Shown: positions 3,102 through 19,451 of the stretch, one piece after another
Numbering within the stretch: position 1 is the stretch's first letter
How the letters are laid out: the number at the start of each line of letters is the position of its first letter
Assembly: GCA_001818655.1 (NCBI GenBank)
Contig: MHLC01000022.1
Location: 2,319 to 34,761 of the forward strand
From: Candidatus Liptonbacteria bacterium RIFCSPLOWO2_01_FULL_56_20
Lineage (GTDB): Bacteria > Patescibacteriota > Minisyncoccia > UBA6257 > 2-01-FULL-56-20
Reading direction: 5' to 3'
Length of the DNA stretch: 32,443 nucleotides
Notes under the pieces: generated by a model
What the model was told of the DNA's origin: nothing
Seen by the model: only the letters and a program-made list of their open reading frames with translations
The model's database searches: none
Made by a program: the position numbers and the translations under genes

Positions 3102-3283
3102 GCGCCCATAGCTCAGTGGTAGAGCGTCCCGTTCACATCCGCCTGCCAAAGCGCGCGTTTAGCTCAGTGGTAGAGCGCTTCGTTCACATCGAAGAGGTCG
3201 CTGGTTCGATCCCAGCAACGCGCACCATAAAAGCGGCGGGCAGGTCGGGAAGGCCTGAAGCTCGATCTTTCATGGGCGCACCA
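3102..3283 (+). tRNA. Outer split tRNA-Val(CAC)-like gene: 5' part 3102-3137, 3' part 3245-3283, with a 107-nt intervening sequence containing another tRNA-Val
   Basis: Acceptor GCGCCCA/TGGGCGC+ACCA; D arm GCTC/GAGC; anticodon stem TCCCG/CGGGA; loop TT-CAC-A|T; T stem TGAAG/TTTCA with non-canonical loop CTCGATC. Confidence 0.75.
3153..3227 (+). tRNA. tRNA-Val(CAC), intact, nested inside the outer tRNA-Val
   Basis: GCGCGTT/AACGCGC acceptor; CTTCG/CGAAG anticodon stem; CAC at 3185-3187; GCTGG-TTCGATC-CCAGC; encoded CCA. Confidence 0.96.
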
Positions 3284-12992: not shown

Positions 12993-13508
12993 ATGAACGA
13001 AGAACAAAAACAAAATAGCAATAAAGAAGAAGCGGCAAAACCAGAGATGAGCGAACTTCAGAAGTGCGAAGCGCAGAAAAATGAGTATCTCGCGGGCTGG
13101 CAGCGCGCGAAAGCCGACCTCATCAACTATAAAAAAGAGGAGTTGCAGCGGCTTGAGGAGTTTGCCAAGTACCACGGCGCTGAATTCATGCGGGAGCTCA
13201 TTGCCGTGCTTGACGCATTTGATCTGGGGCTCGCAGCGCTTGAGAAGCAGGGATCCGTAGAGAAAGGGATCTATATGATCCGGGCGCAGATCGAGGACAT
13301 ATTGAAGAGCCACGGGCTTACGAAAATTCCCATAAGGGTCGGCGATCCGTTCGACCCCGCGGTCGCGGAAGCGATCGCCGAGGCAGAGTCAGGAGAACCG
13401 CCGGGAACCGTTCTCGAGGAGATCGAACCCGGGTACCGGCTCCACGATAAGATCCTTAGGCCAGCGCGAGTAAAAATATCAAAAGGTCAACCAGCAAGTC
13501 ATCAATAA
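12993..13508 (+). CDS. grpE: Nucleotide exchange factor GrpE
   Basis: WQRAKADLINYKK..FDPAVAEA..GYRLHDKILRPARV. Confidence 0.96.
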   Translation: MNEEQKQNSNKEEAAKPEMSELQKCEAQKNEYLAGWQRAKADLINYKKEELQRLEEFAKYHGAEFMRELIAVLDAFDLGLAALEKQGSVEKGIYMIRAQIEDILKSHGLTKIPIRVGDPFDPAVAEAIAEAESGEPPGTVLEEIEPGYRLHDKILRPARVKISKGQPASHQ

Positions 13509-13517
13509 CACAACACC

Positions 13518-15452
13518 ATGCCAAAAATTTTAGGGATAGATCTGGGAACTACGAATTCTGCGGTCGCGGTCACGGACAGCGGCGAGCCGCGCATTTTAGA
13601 GACCGTTGAAGGCAATCGCACCATGCCTTCTATCGTCGCGGTGAGCAAGGCAGGGGAACGCCTCGTGGGGCTTTTGGCCAAGCGGCAAGCCATCACCAAT
13701 CCCAAGAACACGATCTTTTCCGTGAAGCGCCTGATCGGCCGCAAGTGGAGCGACCCAGAGGTTCAGCGGGACAAGGGGTGGCTACCCTATGACATAGTGG
13801 AAGGTCCGAACAGCAGCGTGCGGGTGAAAATGTCCGTCGGAGGCGGATCCGCCTCTGGCGGAGGCGACTATTCCTCGGAAGAGATCTCCGCGTTCATCCT
13901 GGGCAAGCTCAAGGCGGATGCGGAGGCGAAACTCGGCGAAAAAGTGGAAGAAGCGGTCATTACCGTGCCCGCGTATTTCGACGATTCACAGCGGCAGGCG
14001 ACCAAGAATGCCGGGGAGATCGCTGGATTCAAAGTGAGGAGGATCTTGAACGAGCCGACCGCGGCAGCGCTCGCCTACGGGTTTGGGACAGGGAAACAAC
14101 TCCGACGCTCGCAAGGCGAGGCCGGAGCCCCAGGCGAAGCGTCGGGAAAGAACGAAAAGATCGTGGTGTACGACTTTGGCGGCGGCACGTTCGACATCTC
14201 GGTTTTGGAGGTTGGCGACGACACGGTGGAGGTCAAGGCGACCGGTGGCGACACGCATTTGGGCGGCGACGATTTCGACAAGCGTGTGATCGAGTATCTT
14301 GTTGCCGAATACAAAAAACAGGAGGGCATTGACATCTCAAAGGATCCGCTCGCGCTGCAGCGCCTCAAAGAGGCGGCCGAGCGCGCGAAACACGAGCTCT
14401 CGACCGCGGTCGAAACAGAGATCAATCTTCCGTATGTGAGCTCGGACGCGTCCGGCCCCAAGCATTTTCTGATGAAGCTTACGCGGGCTAAGCTTGAATC
14501 CCTGGTGAAGGACTACATTGACCGTTCGATCGAGCTCACGCGCGCGACCGTTACCTTGCCCCAGCCAAAAGGCGCGGGGTTCAAACTTCCGGAGATCAAT
14601 GAAGTGATCCTCGTCGGCGGCCAGACGCGCATGCCGGCGATGGTGGAGGCGGTCAAGAACCTTTTCGGCAAGGAGCCGCACAAGGGCATCAACCCGGACG
14701 AAGTGGTGGCGATCGGAGCCGCGGTCCAGGCAGGGATACTGCAGGGCGACGTGAAAGACATCCTGCTCTTGGACGTCACGCCTCTTGCCTTGAGCATCGA
14801 GACCTTGGGCGGCGTGGCTACGCCAATGATACAGAAGAATACTACGGTCCCTACGGCGAAGACCCAGATCTTCTCGACCGCGGGCGACAGTCAGACGTCG
14901 GTCGAGGTGCACGTGCTGCAGGGCGAACGCCCCATGGCGCAGGACAACAAGACGCTTGCGCGGTTCATGCTGGACGGCATTCCGCCATCGCCGCGCGGCG
15001 TGCCGCAGATCGAGGTGACATTTGACATCGACGCGAACGGCATCCTGAACGTGTCTGCGAAAGACAAGGCCACGGGTAAATCGCAGTCCGTGCGCATCGA
15101 GGCATCCACCGCGCTTTCAAAGGAAGAAGTCGAGCGCCTGCGGCGCGAAGCCGCGGAGCATGCGTCCGAGGATACAGCAAAACGCGAGACCGCAGAGTTG
15201 CGTAACCAGGCAGAAAGCCTGATCTATGTGGCGGAAAAAGCGCTTCGCGAAGCAGGAGACAAGGTAAGCGAAGACGTGAAAAAATCAATAAACGAGAAGA
15301 TCGAACAGCTGAAACAAGTAAAAGACGGCGGCGCAAAAGAAGCGATACAGGGCGCGATCGCAGGGTTGAACGCCGAAATTCAAAAAATAGGCCAGGCGTT
15401 CTATAATAAGGATCAAGATGGCGGGGCTAATTCAGCACCAGAGTCTCATTGA
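13518..15452 (+). CDS. dnaK: Chaperone DnaK carrying two in-frame palindromic insertions
   Basis: [48 protein letters not shown]. Confidence 0.98.
13833..13862. repeat. 30-bp palindromic element in frame in dnaK ([10 protein letters not shown])
   Basis: TCCGTCGGAGGCGGA|TCCGCCTCTGGCGGA; related copies at 16767-16796 and 18114-18143. Confidence 0.85.
14097..14147. repeat. About 51-bp palindromic element in frame in dnaK ([17 protein letters not shown])
   Basis: TCCGACGCT/AGCGTCGGG termini with inner hairpin CTCGC-AAG-GCGAG; similar termini at 28683-28764. Confidence 0.75.
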
Positions 15453-16479
15453 GCAGGCCGCGCGTCGCGAGGTCGTCCGGCCGAAGAAGTTTTACGCGCC
15501 GCTTGTTCTTGACGCGCTCGTCGTCGTCTCTGCGTTCGGCCTCGCGGGCGCGTATAAGGGTTACCTTGCGGGCGGGGCGCCGCTCGGCGCGTTGCTTGCC
15601 GCGCTCGCGCTATTTGCCGTTCTCTCGGTGCTCGCGATGCTTCTTACCAAGGCGTTTCGCCGGAGGCTCGTCGTGCTCGCGATCGAAGTCGTCGCGCTAT
15701 TCCTGCCGTTCTACGACACCCCGGTCGCTTACCCGTTCCAATTTTTGACGCTCACTGCGCTTGCCGCATTCATCGTCCTCGTGTTCGGGGAATACATGGG
15801 CGCGCGGGCGCTCGACAATACGATCAAGATCCAGTTCTTTCGGGTCATCCAGCCGCAGCTTTCACGTCTTATTACGGCGATGGTGCTCTGCGGGGTGATC
15901 CTGTATCTGCCGTACTGGGGCGCGCAGGGAAGCTTCCTTTCTCTGGAGAATTTTAACCGCATGTTTGATTTCGGGATCGGCCCGGTCAAGCAGTTCTATC
16001 CCGAGATAACCTTCACTGGTTCTTTCGGAGATTTTGCGGATGCCATGACGCGTTTACAGCTGAAGAACGACGCGAGGTTCCGCCTGCTCTCGCCAGCAGA
16101 ACAGGAGCGTACGATCCGAGATACCGCAGAACAGCTCCGCGTGAGCCTCTCCGCGAGCCTCAAGTCGGACATTTCGGCAGACAAGCCACTGGTCGTCGTG
16201 TTCTACGATTTTCTGGTGAGCATGCTCGCGCAGTGGCGCGAGACGTTCGGGAACCAATTTCTCTTCGCGTGGGCGGCGATGCTGTTTTTGATCGCGAGAA
16301 GTCTCGGCGTGGTGTTCTACTGGGCAAGCGCGGTCATCGCGTTCTTCGTATATCAGGCGCTCATTGCGGCTAATTTCATCCGCGTGACTGGCGAGACGGG
16401 CGTGCACGAAGTGCTTGACTATTATGCGCCTTACCACAACAATAACGGGCGGATAGACGAAGGGCGGCGGGAGCCATAA
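15418..16479 (+). CDS. Multi-pass membrane protein between dnaK and dnaJ (start uncertain)
   Basis: About 5 N-terminal and 2 C-terminal hydrophobic helices with a soluble loop between; fills the operon gap. Confidence 0.75.
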
Positions 16480-16499
16480 CGGCTTAGGCCGGTTGTTTT

Positions 16500-17621
16500 A
16501 TGCCAAAAGATTACTACAAAATTCTAGGGGTGGAGCGCGGCGCATCCGAGGAAGAGATAAAAAGAGCTTACCGGAAGCTCGCGCACAAGCACCATCCCGA
16601 CAAAACTGGCGGCGACGGGAAAAAATTCAAGGAACTGAACGAGGCGTACCAAGTGCTCTCGGACAAGCAGAAGCGGGCGCAGTATGACCGATTCGGCACC
16701 GCAGAGCCGTTCATGGGGTTCGGCGGCGGCGGCACCGGGCCGTTCTCCGGATTTGATTTCGGGTTCTCCGCAGGAGGCGGGCCCTCTTCGGGCTGGGAAG
16801 GGTTTGACGGCCAGGGATTCCCCGATATGGGCGGTTTGGGTGAGATCTTTGATTCGTTCTTTGAGGGATTGGGAGTGCGCCCGCGCAGGCCCGTATACCG
16901 GCGCGGGTCAGATATCGAGGTGACGCTCGAGATATCGCTTGAAGAAGCGTTCCGCGGCGCGACCAAACCGCTTGCGGTAACGACGCTCACACGCTGCGAG
17001 CGCTGCAAGGGGCAGGGAGGCGACCCTGCCGCGGGGTCAAAAGCGTGCGCGGCGTGCAACGGCCGCGGCGAGGTGCGGGAGGAGCGGCAGACGTTTTTCG
17101 GCAGTTTCGCGCAGGTAAGAACCTGTAGCGCGTGCCGCGGCGCGGGTCAAATCCCGGTGAAGGTCTGCAGCGCGTGCGAGGGGAGCGGCAGGATCTCCGG
17201 CGCGCGCAGCGTGCAGATAGACATCGTGCCGGGCATTGAAGACGGCCAGATCGTAAAGCTAAGCGGTATGGGGGAGGCCGGCGAGCGGGGGACTGGCGCA
17301 GGCGGCCTCTACGTACGCGTGAAGATCCACCCGCACCCGGTGTTCGTGCGCAAAGGAAGCGACCTTATCGTTACCAAGGAACTTAAAGTGGTGGGTCTTT
17401 TGCTCGGTCGGAAAATAGAGGTGCCGACCATAAGCGGCGGGAAAGCGTACGTAGAAATTCCCGCGCATTTCAACCTTAAAGAGAACCTTCGTATCCCCGG
17501 AGAAGGCATGCCGCGGTTCGGCAGTTTTGGCAGGGGAGATCTTTTTGTGAGTTTTATCATTAAGGCGCCCAAGAAAGTGGACGCAAAAATCGCAAAACTG
17601 CTGGAGGAAATGGAGGGATAA
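16500..17621 (+). CDS. dnaJ: Chaperone DnaJ
   Basis: J domain with HPD, G/F region and four CxxCxGxG motifs. Confidence 0.98.
16767..16796. repeat. Degenerate 30-bp element in frame in the dnaJ G/F region ([10 protein letters not shown])
   Basis: TCCGCAGGAGGCGGGCCCTCTTCGGGCTGG resembles the dnaK element in its left half and in length. Confidence 0.5.
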
Positions 17622-17644
17622 GGGCAGACGCGCCATCTTTTTGT

Positions 17645-17682
17645 TTCTTAACAAATTCCGCGGCCGCGGAATTTGTTAAGAA
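17645..17682. repeat. Perfect 38-bp palindrome, copy 2
   Basis: TTCTTAACAAATTCCGCGG|CCGCGGAATTTGTTAAGAA. Confidence 0.95.
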
Positions 17683-17795
17683 GGTGAATCGGTTTGAACC
17701 TGACGGCGAAGAACCGAGGGCCGCCGCGAGCAAAAGCAGCGGCCCCTTAAAATTTGAAAATTCGTTTATAAGCATATAAAATACGCGTGGAATAT

Positions 17796-18047
17796 GCCCC
17801 GGTAGCTCAGTCTGGTAGAGCAGCTCCCTTTAGGCTTACGCCTCACGGGTTCGCTCATCGAAAATACAAACAGTCTTAATTGTCCGCTTGGTGCCCCCTT
17901 AGCTCAGTCTGGTAGAGCAGCTCCCTTTTAAGGAGACGGTCGTAGGTTCAAATCCTACAGGGGGCACCAAGCGGGGGATATGTTTGTATTCTTTCTTCGC
18001 TGCCCGTGATAAGGAGATGGTCCTAGGTTCGAATCCTAGCCGGGGCA
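17796..18047 (+). tRNA. Outer split tRNA-Lys(TTT)-like gene: 5' part 17796-17831, 3' part 18010-18047, with a 178-nt intervening hairpin containing another tRNA-Lys
   Basis: Acceptor GCCCCGG/CCGGGGC+A; D arm GCTC-AGTCTGGTA-GAGC; GCTCC-CTTT|TAA-GGAGA; CTAGG-TTCGAAT-CCTAG; no encoded CCA. Confidence 0.85.
17893..17969 (+). tRNA. tRNA-Lys(TTT), intact, nested inside the outer tRNA-Lys
   Basis: GCCCCCT/AGGGGGC acceptor; loop CTTTTAA (TTT at 17927-17929); GTAGG-TTCAAAT-CCTAC; encoded CCA. Confidence 0.96.
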
Positions 18048-18091
18048 CAAAGGCGAAGTTTGCTTATTCGTTTTCGTCTCACTGCCATTAC

Positions 18092-18160
18092 TAAGCAGAT
18101 GGTCCCAGGTTCTCGTGCCGGAGGCAGATCCGCCTCCGGCGGAAAATCCTGGCCGGGGGA
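18092..18160 (+). pseudogene. Extra tRNA-Lys 3' half with a palindromic element inserted in the T loop
   Basis: TAA-GCAGA-TGGTC-CCAGG-TTC[insert]AAAT-CCTGG-CCGGGGG-A, compared with the outer 3' part TAA-GGAGA-TGGTC-CTAGG-TTCGAAT-CCTAG-CCGGGGC-A. Confidence 0.8.
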
Positions 18161-18209
18161 CAAAAGTGTTCTTGCCAAAATCCTCAAAAATCTGTTAGGA
18201 TAAGTCGCG

Positions 18210-19451
18210 ATGCGGAATCAGCAAGCTTTGTTTCTCGCGCTCATTGCGCTCACCGCGGTTGCCGCCGCGTTTTTCGTGTATCCAGGGTCGCCTTTCGGCA
18301 AATGGCAGCCGTGGCGGCTGGGACTTGACCTTGTGGGCGGGAGCCACCTCGTGTACGGCGTGGATCTTTCGAAAGTCGCGTCTGGAGACCAGGATTCTGT
18401 CTTAAACGGCCTTCGCGACGTGATCGAGCGCCGCGTGAACCTTTTCGGCGTTTCCGAGCCGCAGGTCTATGTCGCGAAATCTGCGGGCGAGTCCCAGCTT
18501 GTCGTAGAGCTCGCGGGCGTCTCTAACATTAGAGACGCCATCCGGCAGATCGGCGAGACCCCGCTCTTGGATTTCCGGGAAGTGGAGCAGGTCGGCTCGA
18601 GCACTATTTTCAACCCCACGAATCTCACGGGCCGCTATATCACAAAAGCAGAACTCACGTTCAATGAGACCACGCAGGCCCCGCAGGTCGCGATCTCTTT
18701 CAATACCGAAGGCGCCGGCATTTTTGAGCGGATGACCGAGGCGAACGTGGGCAAGCCGCTCGCCATATTCCTGGATAATGTGCCGATCGAGATCCCGGTC
18801 GTGCAGGAGAAGATATCGGGCGGCCAGGCAGTCATCAGCGGCAAGTTCACGTTTGACGAGGCGAAACAGCTCGTGGAGCGCTTCAACGCCGGAGCCCTGC
18901 CCGCCCCTATCACGCTTATTGACCAGCTCACTGTTGACCCGAGCTTGGGCGCGGACTCGCTTCGGAAAGCGATACTCGCTGGCGCAATCGGTACGCTTCT
19001 CGTCGTGATATTTATGATCGGCTACTACGGGACATTCGGCGTGTTCGCGTCGCTCGCGCTCGCGATCTATATTTTTCTCACGCTCGGCGTGTTCAAGATC
19101 ATCCCGATCACCTTGAGCTTGGCCGGGCTCGCGGGATTCATCCTCACGATCGGCATGGCGGTTGACGCGAATATCCTTATTTTCGAACGCGTGAAAGAAG
19201 AAACTAAAAAAGGCCTCTCTAAGGTCGCGGCGATACAGGAAGGGTTCCGCAGGGCGTGGCCGTCCATCCGCGATTCGAACACTTCAACCATTATCACCGC
19301 GGTCATCCTGTATTTTTTCACATCGAGCTTTGTCAAAGGGTTTGCGCTCACGCTCTTGGTCGGCGTCCTCGTGAGCATGTTTTCCGCGATCACCACCACG
19401 CGGCTTTTCCTCCGCGTATTTGTCCGCGACCCCACTCGTCCCAACCCCTAA
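18210..19451 (+). CDS. secD: Protein translocase subunit SecD
   Basis: LGLDLVGG; RRVNLFGVSEP; IGMAVDANILIFERVKEE; SIRDSN; VKGFALTL. Confidence 0.96.
   Translation: MRNQQALFLALIALTAVAAAFFVYPGSPFGKWQPWRLGLDLVGGSHLVYGVDLSKVASGDQDSVLNGLRDVIERRVNLFGVSEPQVYVAKSAGESQLVVELAGVSNIRDAIRQIGETPLLDFREVEQVGSSTIFNPTNLTGRYITKAELTFNETTQAPQVAISFNTEGAGIFERMTEANVGKPLAIFLDNVPIEIPVVQEKISGGQAVISGKFTFDEAKQLVERFNAGALPAPITLIDQLTVDPSLGADSLRKAILAGAIGTLLVVIFMIGYYGTFGVFASLALAIYIFLTLGVFKIIPITLSLAGLAGFILTIGMAVDANILIFERVKEETKKGLSKVAAIQEGFRRAWPSIRDSNTSTIITAVILYFFTSSFVKGFALTLLVGVLVSMFSAITTTRLFLRVFVRDPTRPNP

What the first reader, a model, noticed from the sequence alone, without database searches (positions are those of the whole stretch)
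17796..18047. tRNA-Lys(TTT) inside a 178-nt long-hairpin intervening sequence at anticodon position 35/36 of a second tRNA-Lys
Seen: the insert 17832-18009 folds as a long interrupted rod. TCACGGG (17843-49) pairs with CCCGTGA (18003-09), AATACAAACA (17863-72) with TGTTTGTATT (17981-90), and TCCGCTTGGT (17883-92) with ACCAAGCGGG (17966-75); a small GGC-TTAC-GCC hairpin sits at the 5' junction. The innermost helix stacks on the inner acceptor stem and sequesters its CCA. The outer tRNA is canonical (GGTTCGAATCC; acceptor GCCCCGG/CCGGGGC vs inner GCCCCCT/AGGGGGC; T stem CTAGG/CCTAG vs GTAGG/CCTAC). Joining CTTT|TAA recreates the inner loop exactly. Other 7-nt joins would give GAT, TAT or TTA anticodons, so the junction is inferred. 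Established: tRNA-Lys(UUU) is the target of the anticodon nuclease PrrC. Inference: the rod brings the two exon ends together as an intron would.
Basis: partly seen in the sequence, partly recalled or inferred. Interest (0 to 1): 0.9.

Follow-up and report, generated by a model that had tools for sequence, protein, structure and literature searches.

The report
tRNA-carrying hairpin element nested in tRNA-Lys
A working lysine tRNA gene, wrapped in the two arms of a repeated hairpin-shaped DNA element, sits inside the anticodon loop of an older lysine tRNA gene, which looks like a selfish cassette that breaks a tRNA gene and brings its own replacement.

Summary
A complete tRNA-Lys(UUU) (17893-17969), flanked by pairing arms, interrupts a second tRNA-Lys between nt 35 and 36 (halves 17796-17831 and 18010-18047). 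Contigs from four independent metagenome runs cover the junctions.

The 178-nt insert is not a one-off intron. It belongs to a repeated, ORF-less hairpin element family, which I call E. E consists of a small hairpin, helix P1, a conserved TTCGCTC, helix P2, an apical part, YTCGCTG, and the P1 return strand.

The 5' motif occurs in 53 of 125 genomes of the family. Of 59 well-defined copies, 34 are compact (short apical loop) and 25 carry a tRNA (Lys-UUU, Lys-CUU, Ile-GAU or Ile-UAU). All 23 carrier copies that I aligned sit in remains of a gene of the same tRNA type. The helices covary strongly.

The outer tRNA is intact here but broken in 17 of 23 relatives. Relatives show serial "Russian-doll" layers, and the window holds a third, older 3' layer (18048-18160). 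G·U and A·C mismatches are equally common. No RtcB or splicing endonuclease was found.

Best reading: a mobile hairpin cassette that replaces the tRNA gene it disrupts. The outer halves are relics, not exons. How it moves is unknown, and no RNA data were available.

The parts
17754..17782 (+). Sigma-70-like promoter TTGAAA-17-TAAAAT, 13 nt upstream of the outer tRNA 5' end. No promoter-like site was found between the outer 5' part and the inner tRNA.
   Evidence: 10 of 12 matches; 2 sites found against 0.5 expected in shuffles. A consensus match only.
17796..17831 (+). Outer tRNA-Lys 5' part: acceptor GCCCCGG, D arm, anticodon stem GCUCC, loop CUUU up to nt 35.
17832..17842 (+). Small 5' hairpin of element E (GGC-UUAC-GCC). 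In the family it is conserved as a structure with variable sequence.
17843..17849 (+). P1 5' strand, TCACGGG.
17850..17856 (+). Conserved 5' core TTCGCTC.
   Evidence: each position conserved in at least 53 of 59 copies
17857..17882 (+). P2 5' strand (ATCGAAAAT ACAAACAG...) and spacer.
17883..17892 (+). P3 5' strand, TCCGCTTGGT. It extends the inner acceptor stem.
17893..17969 (+). Inner, intact tRNA-Lys(UUU) with encoded CCA. This is the working gene (cargo).
17966..17975 (+). P3 3' strand, ACCAAGCGGG. It overlaps the discriminator and CCA.
17976..17995 (+). Spacer and P2 3' strand (...TGTTTGTATTCTTTC).
17996..18002 (+). Conserved 3' core TTCGCTG.
18003..18009 (+). P1 3' strand, CCCGTGA.
18010..18047 (+). 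Outer tRNA-Lys 3' part: UAA, GGAGA, variable loop, T arm CTAGG/CCTAG, acceptor CCGGGGC, A73. No CCA is encoded.
18048..18091 (+). 3' arm of an older layer: core CTCACTG at 18078-18084 and P1 3' strand CCATTAC at 18085-18091. Its 5' partner is missing.
18092..18160 (+). Oldest relic tRNA-Lys 3' part (TAAGCAGA...CCGGGGGA). Its T loop is split by a 30-nt GC-rich palindrome (18113-18142) that recurs elsewhere in the genome.

Best explanation
The insert 17832-18009 is a copy of a non-coding, structured hairpin element family (E) found in this lineage of very small bacteria. I infer that the lineage is CPR/Patescibacteria-like. This copy carries a complete tRNA-Lys(UUU) in its apical region and lies between nt 35 and 36 of a pre-existing tRNA-Lys(UUU) gene.

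Shown: the architecture, the family, the covariation, the restriction of tRNA-carrying copies to remains of the same tRNA type, and the serial layers.

Inferred: E is or was mobile DNA with a preference for T-rich|TA(AG) sites, such as the Lys (CTTT|TAAGG) and Ile (CTGA|TAAGA) anticodon loops. A copy that lands in an essential tRNA gene survives only because it brings a replacement. Because the cargo recreates the target, it can be invaded again, which gives the layers. The window shows this as a third, older 3' arm plus 3' part.

Inferred for expression: one promoter upstream of the outer 5' part drives a transcript that folds into the rod. The inner tRNA is released by RNase P and 3' processing, possibly after RNase III cuts the rod. 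The outer parts are by-products and relics, and are not ligated into a second tRNA.

Whether E moves by transposition through an unknown trans-acting enzyme or by homology-dependent conversion is not resolved.
For: Family: the 18-nt 5' motif (up to 1 mismatch) is in 53 of 125 genomes of the family, with up to 8 copies per genome, against 2 hits for the reversed control. Of 96 distinct motif hits read, 59 have a 3' core within 200 nt with at least 6 of 7 P1 pairs: 34 compact and 25 with a tRNA (16 Lys-UUU, 5 Lys-CUU, 3 Ile-GAU, 1 Ile-UAU).

Covariation in the 34 compact copies: 95.5% of cells are paired against 81.4% shuffled; 16 of 20 pairs have double changes; the score is 0.381 against 0.130 (0 of 500 shuffles reach it) and at most 0.10 for the slid controls. 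P2 was not used to select the copies, and 9 of its 10 pairs show double changes. P3 runs a mean of 7.0 contiguous pairs against 2.6 with swapped partners.

Context: in all 23 cargo copies processed, the flanks align to the two halves of the cargo tRNA. About 16 of the 34 compact copies have AT-rich flanks with no tRNA half visible (read by eye). One compact copy lies inside a 16S rRNA gene.

Relic state: the joined outer parts are called a tRNA in 5 of 23, are ambiguous in 1, and are not called in 17, where they are interrupted by extra inserts of 4-63 nt or truncated.

Layers: L046 has three successive 5' part + arm units with different hairpin and P1 sequences. L011 and L038 have extra 3' layers. 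The window has 18048-18160.

Same locus with and without the element: dnaJ-tRNA-Lys-secD is nested in 15 fetched loci and plain in 14. On a DnaJ tree the states are intermixed: 4 changes are needed, at least 2 are forced by supported branches, and nested G086 is sister to plain G018 at 97/94.

Mismatches: G·U 33 against A·C 38 over P1, P2 and P3. This is expected for DNA-level inverted repeats or for recent copies, not for an RNA helix under long selection.

Enzymes: no RtcB or EndA; RNase III is present. Promoter.
Against: No enzyme that could move E was found. Y1 transposase is in 1 of 5 genomes tested, including the four with the most copies that I tested, and the TnpB zinc-ribbon domain is in 0 of 5. 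No copy with an ORF between the arms was seen in my loci or in 80 metagenome loci. There is no target-site duplication and there are no strictly terminal inverted repeats.

Sequence conservation is concentrated in unpaired core nucleotides while the helices covary, a pattern typical of functional RNAs. The two cores themselves pair through a central GC/GC that covaries (TTCGTTC with CTCACTG).

None of the 25 tRNA-carrying copies lies at a neutral intergenic site, which is odd for a free transposon.

The outer tRNA in the window is a perfect cloverleaf whose acceptor stem differs from the inner one by compensatory pairs. Outer parts in relatives stay nearly identical to the inner copy where they align. 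This fits recent insertion, but it also fits selection or gene conversion.

G000 itself has no compact copy. The selection of copies by P1 pairing inflates the P1 statistics. No RNA data exist for any step of expression.
Confidence: 0.6

Rival explanations
1. True intervening sequence of a new bacterial kind. The transcript is processed so that the inner tRNA is released and the outer halves, held together by the rod, are cut at 35|36 and ligated, giving two tRNA-Lys from one gene. Compact copies in rRNA and elsewhere would be removed in the same way.
For: The junction restores CUUUUAA exactly, and ARAGORN accepts the joined outer parts. The outer acceptor and T stems are perfectly paired with pairs different from the inner copy. 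The hairpin, P1 and anticodon stem form a conserved three-way junction. The helices covary while unpaired cores are conserved. The insertion point is the same in Lys and Ile tRNAs. One compact copy lies inside a 16S rRNA gene, where an unremoved insert might be harmful. CPR rRNA genes are reported to hold many uncharacterised short ORF-less insertions (PMC11270868, passages read).
Against: The outer parts are broken in 17 of 23 relatives, so they are dispensable. There is no G·U excess (33 against 38 A·C). No RtcB, no splicing endonuclease, no Rfam intron or ribozyme match at E up to 10, no bulge-helix-bulge motif at the junctions, and no conserved 3'-terminal G. Compact copies lie at intergenic sites and antisense in tRNA relics, where splicing has no role. 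A cargo tRNA is unnecessary if the intron is harmlessly spliced.
Confidence: 0.12
2. Host-serving processing or regulatory scaffold. The rod is a vertically inherited leader-trailer stem, like rRNA processing stems, that controls maturation or folding of the inner tRNA-Lys. The outer halves are an old duplication kept similar by gene conversion.
For: The dnaJ-tRNA-Lys-secD locus is shared by many genera, nested or plain. P3 pairs leader with trailer, including the CCA. RNase III is present. A single upstream promoter-like site was found. The duplicated 5' part in the transcript could mispair with the inner 3' part, so a clamp would be useful (inference).
Against: The same arms occur as up to 8 compact copies per genome with no tRNA. 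Layers with different arm variants at one locus (L046) point to repeated arrivals. The nested and plain states are intermixed on the DnaJ tree. Plain tRNA-Lys genes at the same locus do without it.
Confidence: 0.12
3. Leftover attachment sites from integrase-mediated integration and excision of genomic islands or phages at tRNA-Lys.
For: Repeated 3' parts downstream of tRNA genes (window 18010-18160; other tRNAs in G000) resemble the 3' duplications left by integrative elements (recalled knowledge).
Against: A 5' part is duplicated too. The whole insert is 178 nt with no integrase or island. The arms are inverted repeats of a defined repeat family. A search for 'empty' P1-core-P1 hairpins gave 42 places against 13 for the reversed control, and the 3 inspected were not hairpin elements.
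Confidence: 0.03
4. Assembly chimera of two tRNA-Lys alleles.
For: The genome is a 30-contig assembly containing Ns, and repeated 31-mers break contigs at the tRNA halves.
Against: Contigs from 4 runs of 4 studies bridge both arm junctions with 0 differences. The same architecture occurs in many other genomes.
Confidence: 0.01

Closest known systems
Group I introns in bacterial tRNA anticodon loops (for example cyanobacterial tRNA-Leu(UAA), Azoarcus tRNA-Ile; recalled, and the title and abstract of PMC13168695 in the listing)
   Same: An intervening sequence in the anticodon loop of a bacterial tRNA gene, with sporadic distribution among relatives.
   Different: No Rfam group I match. The size is 178 nt, of which 77 are a tRNA, or about 85-100 nt in compact form. 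No conserved terminal G. A rod-shaped fold with two 7-nt cores. Copies also lie at non-genic sites. It carries a tRNA.
Archaeal bulge-helix-bulge tRNA introns, including mobile introns of Thermoproteales and split or tri-split tRNAs (Fujishima et al. 2009 and 2010 as summarised in PMC10714607, passages read; review PMC4390854, listing only)
   Same: Insertions in tRNA loops at non-canonical positions, related inserts shared among tRNAs, and complementary leader/trailer helices that bring halves together.
   Different: The organism is a bacterium (sigma-70, DnaK/DnaJ/GrpE, SecD). No splicing endonuclease or RtcB was found. No BHB motif. The insert contains a whole tRNA.
Non-autonomous palindromic mobile elements of bacteria (MITEs, REP/REPIN, IS200/IS605-derived PATEs; recalled)
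   Same: Short, non-coding, multi-copy, hairpin-forming, with arms that stay complementary, site preference, and dependence on a trans-acting enzyme.
   Different: No target-site duplication and no strictly terminal inverted repeats. An extra 5' hairpin. Conserved non-complementary cores in an internal loop. No partner transposase was identified. Some copies carry a full tRNA and sit in the same type of tRNA gene.
Intervening sequences (IVS) of bacterial 23S rRNA cut out by RNase III without ligation, and the uncharacterised short ORF-less insertions in CPR rRNA genes (PMC11270868, passages read)
   Same: Extended hairpins inserted in stable-RNA genes, patchy distribution, RNase III available, and one compact copy inside a 16S rRNA gene.
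   Different: Here the host gene is a tRNA whose anticodon loop cannot tolerate fragmentation. The element supplies a replacement tRNA. That paper does not mention tRNA (0 occurrences).
Integrative elements that target tRNA genes and carry a copy of the displaced 3' part (recalled)
   Same: The logic of disrupting a tRNA gene while restoring its function from element-borne sequence, and the relic tRNA fragments left behind.
   Different: The whole tRNA is supplied, not just the 3' part. There is no integrase or island. The insertion is nested with inverted-repeat arms.

Membership tests
tRNA (inner gene) | Cloverleaf and conserved nucleotides scored by a covariance model and by ARAGORN | tested here: met
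   Rfam RF00005 at 70.3 bits (gathering 29), 17893-17966. ARAGORN calls tRNA-Lys(ttt) at 17893-17969.
tRNA (outer gene, insert removed in silico) | The joined halves form a recognisable tRNA | tested here: met
   ARAGORN calls tRNA-Lys(ttt) on the joined halves of the window copy. The same holds in only 5 of 23 family copies. This is an in-silico result and says nothing about real joining.
Group I intron | Match to the group I covariance model (P3-P9 core) | tested here: not met
   No intron family at E up to 10 in 17000-19000 or in a compact copy.
Group I intron | Conserved G as the last intron nucleotide | tested here: not met
   The last nucleotide of the P1 3' strand varies (A, G, C, T) among the 59 copies.
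Archaeal/eukaryal-type protein-spliced tRNA intron | tRNA-splicing endonuclease encoded in the genome | tested here: not met
   PF01974 gives 0 matches in G000 (97.5% complete). The control search rings in 4 archaeal genomes.
Archaeal/eukaryal-type protein-spliced tRNA intron | RtcB-type ligase encoded | tested here: not met
   PF01139 gives 0 matches in G000. The control search rings in 10 of 14 genomes.
Archaeal/eukaryal-type protein-spliced tRNA intron | Bulge-helix-bulge motif at the two junctions | tested here: not met
   In the predicted fold, CUUUA is followed by a variable hairpin on the 5' side, and UAA lies between P1 and the anticodon stem on the 3' side. There is no 3-4-3 motif, and hairpin length varies from 3 to about 11 bp among copies.
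MITE | Short, non-coding, multi-copy | tested here: met
   About 85-100 nt compact. Up to 8 copies per genome. Found in 53 of 125 genomes.
MITE | Terminal inverted repeats and a target-site duplication | tested here: not met
   The left end is a variable hairpin and P1 is subterminal. There is no consistent duplication. The 5' flank is mostly T-rich, and the 3' flank is TA in 36 of 59 (TAAG in 23 of 59).
MITE / PATE | Related autonomous element or partner transposase in the same genomes | tested here: not met
   Y1_Tnp in 1 of 5 and the TnpB zinc ribbon in 0 of 5 genomes tested. No ORF between the arms in the loci examined. Other transposase families were not tested.
RNase III-processed IVS | Extended hairpin in a stable-RNA gene, and RNase III present | tested here: met
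   Rod fold. RNase III domain at 138.6 bits in G000.
RNase III-processed IVS | Excision from the transcript without religation | not testable with these tools
   No RNA run holds the stretch.
Integrase attachment-site duplication at a tRNA gene | Only the 3' part is duplicated, with an integrase-bearing element between the repeats | tested here: not met
   The 5' part is also duplicated. 178 nt lie between the halves, with no ORF.

The most novel reading that the evidence does not exclude
E is a new class of bacterial intervening sequence that acts at the RNA level. Its conserved two-fold internal loop (UUCGCUC / YUCGCUG with a central covarying GC/GC) would be the recognition or catalytic centre for excision and exon ligation. 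Nested transcripts would then yield two or more tRNAs, and inserts in rRNA would be removed. Mobility would be by reverse insertion into exposed loops of stable RNAs.
Probability: 0.1. Interest if true: 0.95.

Novelty: new variant of a known kind. Interest (0 to 1): 0.72.

Why it matters
If this reading is right, these very small bacteria host a selfish element with an unusual strategy. It targets the anticodon loop of an essential tRNA gene, destroys that gene, and ensures its own retention by carrying the replacement. Repeated rounds leave stratified tRNA fossils.

This would explain why 8 of 41 tRNA genes in this genome are flanked by pieces of themselves. It warns annotators that tRNA halves in such genomes are relics rather than split genes. 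It gives a datable record of tRNA gene turnover.

The element family also gives a concrete, searchable structure for part of the "uncharacterised short insertions" reported in CPR rRNA genes.

If the minority reading holds instead (RNA-level removal), it would be the first non-group-I tRNA intron system in bacteria.

My six full-text searches found no description of a tRNA nested in a tRNA or of this element. Subscription journals are not covered, and supplementary files were not opened.

Tried and rejected
1. RNA evidence. The look-up of sequencing runs listed no RNA holder, so expression, processing and splicing could not be tested. In read laying, no contig joined 17831 to 18010, so no empty-site or spliced form was seen. 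Contigs drop rare variants, so this shows nothing. One joint, 17823->17898 (side 22, depth about 3.5, 2 runs), does not match homologous positions, and I took it for other organisms' tRNA sequence.

2. Cassette (attB/attP-like) model. In this model P1-core-P1 hairpins would be empty sites and the P2-bounded part the insert. The pattern search gave 42 places in 36 of 125 genomes against 13 for the reversed control. Only 1 place was exact. The 3 places I read were long GC-rich stretches without the hairpin. I rejected the model, but I inspected only 3 of 42.

3. Partner enzymes. Y1_Tnp was in 1 of 5 genomes and the TnpB zinc ribbon in 0 of 5. A crude motif scan for GIY-YIG-like ORFs in all loci held at the time gave 5 hits, of which 2 are plausible (L053 inside a broken cargo tRNA, L083 nearby), so there is no general link. 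Other transposase, integrase and LAGLIDADG families were not tested.

4. Autonomous copies. In 80 metagenome loci, 25 had a partner core at compact distance (46-64 nt; 16 loci) or cargo distance (136-164 nt; 9 loci). The 13 longer-range partners looked like chance, and the 3 I read had no hairpin. On viral contigs, all 5 hits lay in sequence without arms.

5. Model R1 on G000 found only the window copy, and only as a weak partial match (E 0.6), because the cargo splits the model.

6. TA target-site duplication. It is suggested by some compact copies but absent in many tRNA copies (for example CTTT|GGCGG in L010), so I rejected it.

7. ARAGORN with the intron option does not find the outer gene.

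9. Distribution outside the family. The motif occurs in 23 of 359 genomes of other families of the order, against about 10 reversed-control hits. I did not read these, so I make no claim.

10. The 16S copy (L067) lies within a larger divergent or inserted region whose borders I could not define.

11. Two of the 25 cargo copies (L110, L124) were not processed, because the script stopped at L110. L110 appears to lie antisense next to a relic of the same tRNA type, but this is unresolved.

12. Supplementary files of papers were not opened. Those of PMC11270868 may list insertion sequences that overlap E.
Full report
WHAT IS IN THE SEQUENCE. The window is G000:C22:2319-34761 of a 648,384-base, 30-contig genome rated 97.5% complete. 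The locus lies between grpE-dnaK-(unknown ORF)-dnaJ (12993-17621) and secD (18210-19451). These genes, a sigma-70 domain protein, the genome size and the groundwater/soil metagenome sources make a CPR/Patescibacteria-like bacterium likely. That is an inference, because names are hidden.

- ARAGORN finds one tRNA-Lys(ttt) at 17893-17969, and Rfam scores it at 70.3 bits.
- Upstream lies a 36-nt tRNA-Lys 5' part (17796-17831) that ends with CTTT.
- Downstream lies a 38-nt 3' part (18010-18047) that starts with TAAGGAGA.
- The two parts have matching acceptor strands (GCCCCGG/CCGGGGC) that differ from the inner ones (GCCCCCT/AGGGGGC).
- RNAfold gives the described rod, the small 5' hairpin and the outer acceptor stem at -111.8 kcal/mol, z -6.4, with 0 of 200 shuffles as stable.
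- Contigs from four runs of four studies cross both arm junctions without a difference, so this is not an assembly artefact.

THE ARRANGEMENT RECURS. A DNA search of 60 relatives found matches extending into the arms in 11 genomes of the same family. Reading them showed the same order: 5' part, small hairpin, arm, full tRNA-Lys, arm, 3' part, with the junction after CTTT and before TAAG. P1 differs in sequence but stays complementary (TCACGGG/CCCGTGA, TCGCGGG/CCCGCGA, CCGCCGG/CCGGCGG, CTGTCGG/CCGACAG). Two 7-nt blocks just inside P1 are conserved: TTCGCTC on the 5' side and YTCGCTG on the 3' side.

THE INSERT IS A MEMBER OF A REPEAT FAMILY.
- The motif GGTTCGYTCRTYRAAAAT (up to 1 mismatch) occurs in 53 of 125 genomes of the family, up to 8 times per genome, against 2 hits for the reversed control.
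- I fetched or already held all the places and found 96 distinct motif hits. Of these, 59 have a 3' core within 200 nt and at least 6 of 7 P1 pairs. By my estimate, chance would give such a partner in about 3% of cases.
- Thirty-four copies are compact: the two P2 strands are joined by a short loop, and the whole element is about 85-100 nt.
- Twenty-five hold a tRNA: 16 Lys-UUU (one called 'Stop tta' by ARAGORN but with the same anticodon arm), 5 Lys-CUU, 3 Ile-GAU and 1 Ile-UAU.
- A remnant of an Ile-GAU case (3' arm with CTCGCTG, then TAAGACAG... 3' part) lies in G000 itself on C10.
- No Rfam family matches the arms or a compact copy. The best hit is E 0.81 at 15 bits.

STRUCTURE AND COVARIATION.
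- On an alignment of the 34 compact copies, RNAalifold predicts P1 plus a U·G pair, a central GC/GC pair between the two cores, and P2.
- Counting pairs gives 95.5% paired cells against 81.4% after shuffling, 16 of 20 pairs with double changes, and a covariation score of 0.381 against 0.130 (0 of 500 shuffles reach it). The slid controls score at most 0.10.
- P1 was used to pick the copies, so its figures (392 of 413 Watson-Crick against 257 with swapped partners) are inflated. P2 was not used, and 9 of its 10 pairs show double changes.
- The central core pairs covary: TTCGTTC goes with CTCACTG in several copies.
- In the cargo copies, a third helix P3 pairs the leader with nt 73 and the trailer. 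It has a mean of 7.0 contiguous pairs against 2.6 with swapped partners.

WHY I DO NOT READ IT AS AN INTRON.
(a) Context. About 16 of the 34 compact copies lie in AT-rich sequence with no tRNA half in view. Thirteen lie in T-loop-like sequence of tRNA relics in antisense orientation. One lies antisense in a relic tRNA-Lys(CUU) loop, and one lies inside a 16S rRNA gene (contexts read by eye). The 3' flank is TA in 36 of 59 copies and TAAG in 23 of 59. The 5' flank is mostly T-rich. This looks like a site preference that the Lys and Ile anticodon loops happen to satisfy.
(b) The outer gene is dispensable. In 23 cargo copies, the outer parts still align to the inner tRNA, often almost identically. 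However, they are called a tRNA after in-silico joining in only 5, are ambiguous in 1, and fail in 17. The failures are interrupted by extra inserts of 4-63 nt (mostly GC-rich palindromes in the D or T loop) or are truncated.
(c) Layers. L046 has three successive '5' part-hairpin-arm' units with different hairpin and P1 sequences ahead of one intact tRNA. L011 and L038 have extra 3' arms and 3' parts. The window has a third 3' arm (core CTCACTG 18078-84, P1 strand 18085-91) followed by a third 3' part whose T loop holds a 30-nt palindrome. Each layer looks like a former cargo tRNA that was invaded in turn.
(d) Mismatch spectrum. G·U and A·C mismatches are equally common: P1 9:7, compact P2 6:11, cargo P2 5:10, P3 13:10, for a total of 33:38. 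An RNA helix under selection should tolerate G·U but not A·C. Equal numbers fit DNA-level inverted repeats, or young copies decaying at random.
(e) Machinery. No RtcB, no tRNA-splicing endonuclease, no group I or ribozyme match, no bulge-helix-bulge motif.

SAME LOCUS, TWO STATES. dnaJ and/or secD flank the tRNA-Lys locus in many of the fetched loci. Fifteen of these are nested (the window, L009, L010, L012, L016, L018, L022, L038, L039, L049, L050, L053, L057, L062, L065) and 14 are plain. On a DnaJ tree of 15 full-length sequences the states are intermixed. Four changes are needed, at least 2 are forced by well-supported branches, and nested G086 is sister to plain G018 with support 97/94. 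Most of the tree is unresolved. Gain by insertion and loss by recombination between the repeated halves are both plausible, and the tree does not tell them apart.

HOW IT PROBABLY WORKS. The only promoter-like site is TTGAAA-17-TAAAAT at 17754-17782, 13 nt before the outer 5' end. No such site lies in the 5' arm. The inner tRNA is therefore probably transcribed through the outer 5' part. The rod would keep the duplicated halves from mispairing and present the inner tRNA for RNase P and 3' trimming. RNase III is encoded and could open the rod. These steps are inferred. How the element moves is open.
- No target-site duplication and no terminal inverted repeats were seen.
- No ORF-bearing copy was found.
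- Y1 transposase is in 1 of 5 genomes and TnpB in 0 of 5, including the four with the most copies that I tested.
- Viral contigs gave only chance hits.
- An alternative 'cassette in a hairpin site' model found no empty sites.
- That none of the 25 cargo copies lies outside a tRNA gene of its own type, while about half of the compact copies do, suggests the cargo forms spread by homology with the tRNA halves rather than by free transposition, or that they arise in another way I have not seen.

WIDER PATTERN IN THIS GENOME. Eight of 41 tRNA genes have a partial copy of themselves within 400 nt. tRNA-Val(CAC) in this same window (3102-3283) and tRNA-Pro(UGG) on C9 are nested too, with pairing arms that lack the E cores. 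Six of eight small GIY-YIG nuclease ORFs lie next to tRNA genes. tRNA gene invasion and replacement therefore seems to be a general process here, with E as one well-defined agent.

LITERATURE. Six full-text searches found no report of a tRNA nested in a tRNA, of tRNA introns in CPR bacteria, or of this element. PMC11270868 (passages read) reports many uncharacterised short ORF-less insertions in CPR rRNA genes and does not mention tRNA. PMC10714607 (passages read) summarises the archaeal split and intron-bearing tRNAs. Other comparisons (MITE, REPIN, PATE, integrase sites) rest on my own knowledge.

VERDICT. The intron interpretation is partly supported (structure, covariation) but is not the best fit. 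Best reading (0.6): a tRNA-carrying member of a new hairpin element family that has replaced the resident tRNA-Lys, leaving its halves as relics. A true RNA-level intervening sequence remains possible (about 0.1) and would be the more remarkable result.

Noticed in passing
window 3102-3283: tRNA-Val(CAC) (3153-3227) is itself nested. A relic 5' part with the full anticodon loop lies at 3102-3138, a 14-nt arm at 3139-3152, an 18-nt arm at 3228-3245, and a relic 3' part with matching acceptor strand at 3246-3283. The junction is after nt 38, and the arms lack the E cores.
   Followed up: partly
G000 genome-wide (for example C9:415-487 tRNA-Pro; C13:514-585 tRNA-Gln; C10:1106-1179 tRNA-Ile): Eight of 41 tRNA genes have a partial copy of themselves within 400 nt. 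tRNA-Pro(UGG) is nested between its own 5' and 3' relics, with 11-12 bp pairing arms.
   Followed up: partly
G000: C21:32940-33152, C13:92-310 and 645-842, C15:6628-6840, C22:206-406, C12:11665-11871: Six of eight small GIY-YIG nuclease ORFs (82-123 aa) lie within about 500 nt of tRNA genes. One lies between a broken and an intact tRNA-Gln. A similar ORF sits inside a broken tRNA-Lys in L053.
   Followed up: partly
window 18113-18142; G000 C15:3699-3735, C15:4255-4293, C9:511-544, C28:20254-20294, C26:20218-20265: A roughly 30-nt GC-rich double-hairpin palindrome (CCGCC..GGCGGATCCGCC..GGCGG type) recurs, mostly inside T-loop-like sequence of tRNA relics. Two other palindrome types (CCTGCCTGCCGGCAGGCAGG; AGCCTGTCCC...) interrupt D and T loops of relic halves in many relatives.
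   Followed up: no
L067 (G092) about 1475-1600; G000 C21 about 51000-53100: A compact E copy lies inside a 16S rRNA gene that spans 2054 nt. The window genome's own 16S gene also has a gap of about 730 nt relative to it, that is, large insertions in the rRNA genes.
   Followed up: partly
L126 (G140) 434-700: Between dnaJ and secD, the tRNA-Lys genes lie on the opposite strand. A compact E sits antisense in the anticodon loop of a relic tRNA-Lys(CUU), next to an intact copy that is nested by different arms inserted in the D loop.
   Followed up: partly
window 15418-16479: A 353-aa ORF between dnaK and dnaJ has no Pfam match.
   Followed up: no
G000 tRNA set: ARAGORN finds 41 tRNA genes. There is no tRNA-Thr(UGU), only one CAU-anticodon tRNA, and a tRNA-Ile(UAU). 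The missing ones may lie in gaps or be interrupted.
   Followed up: no
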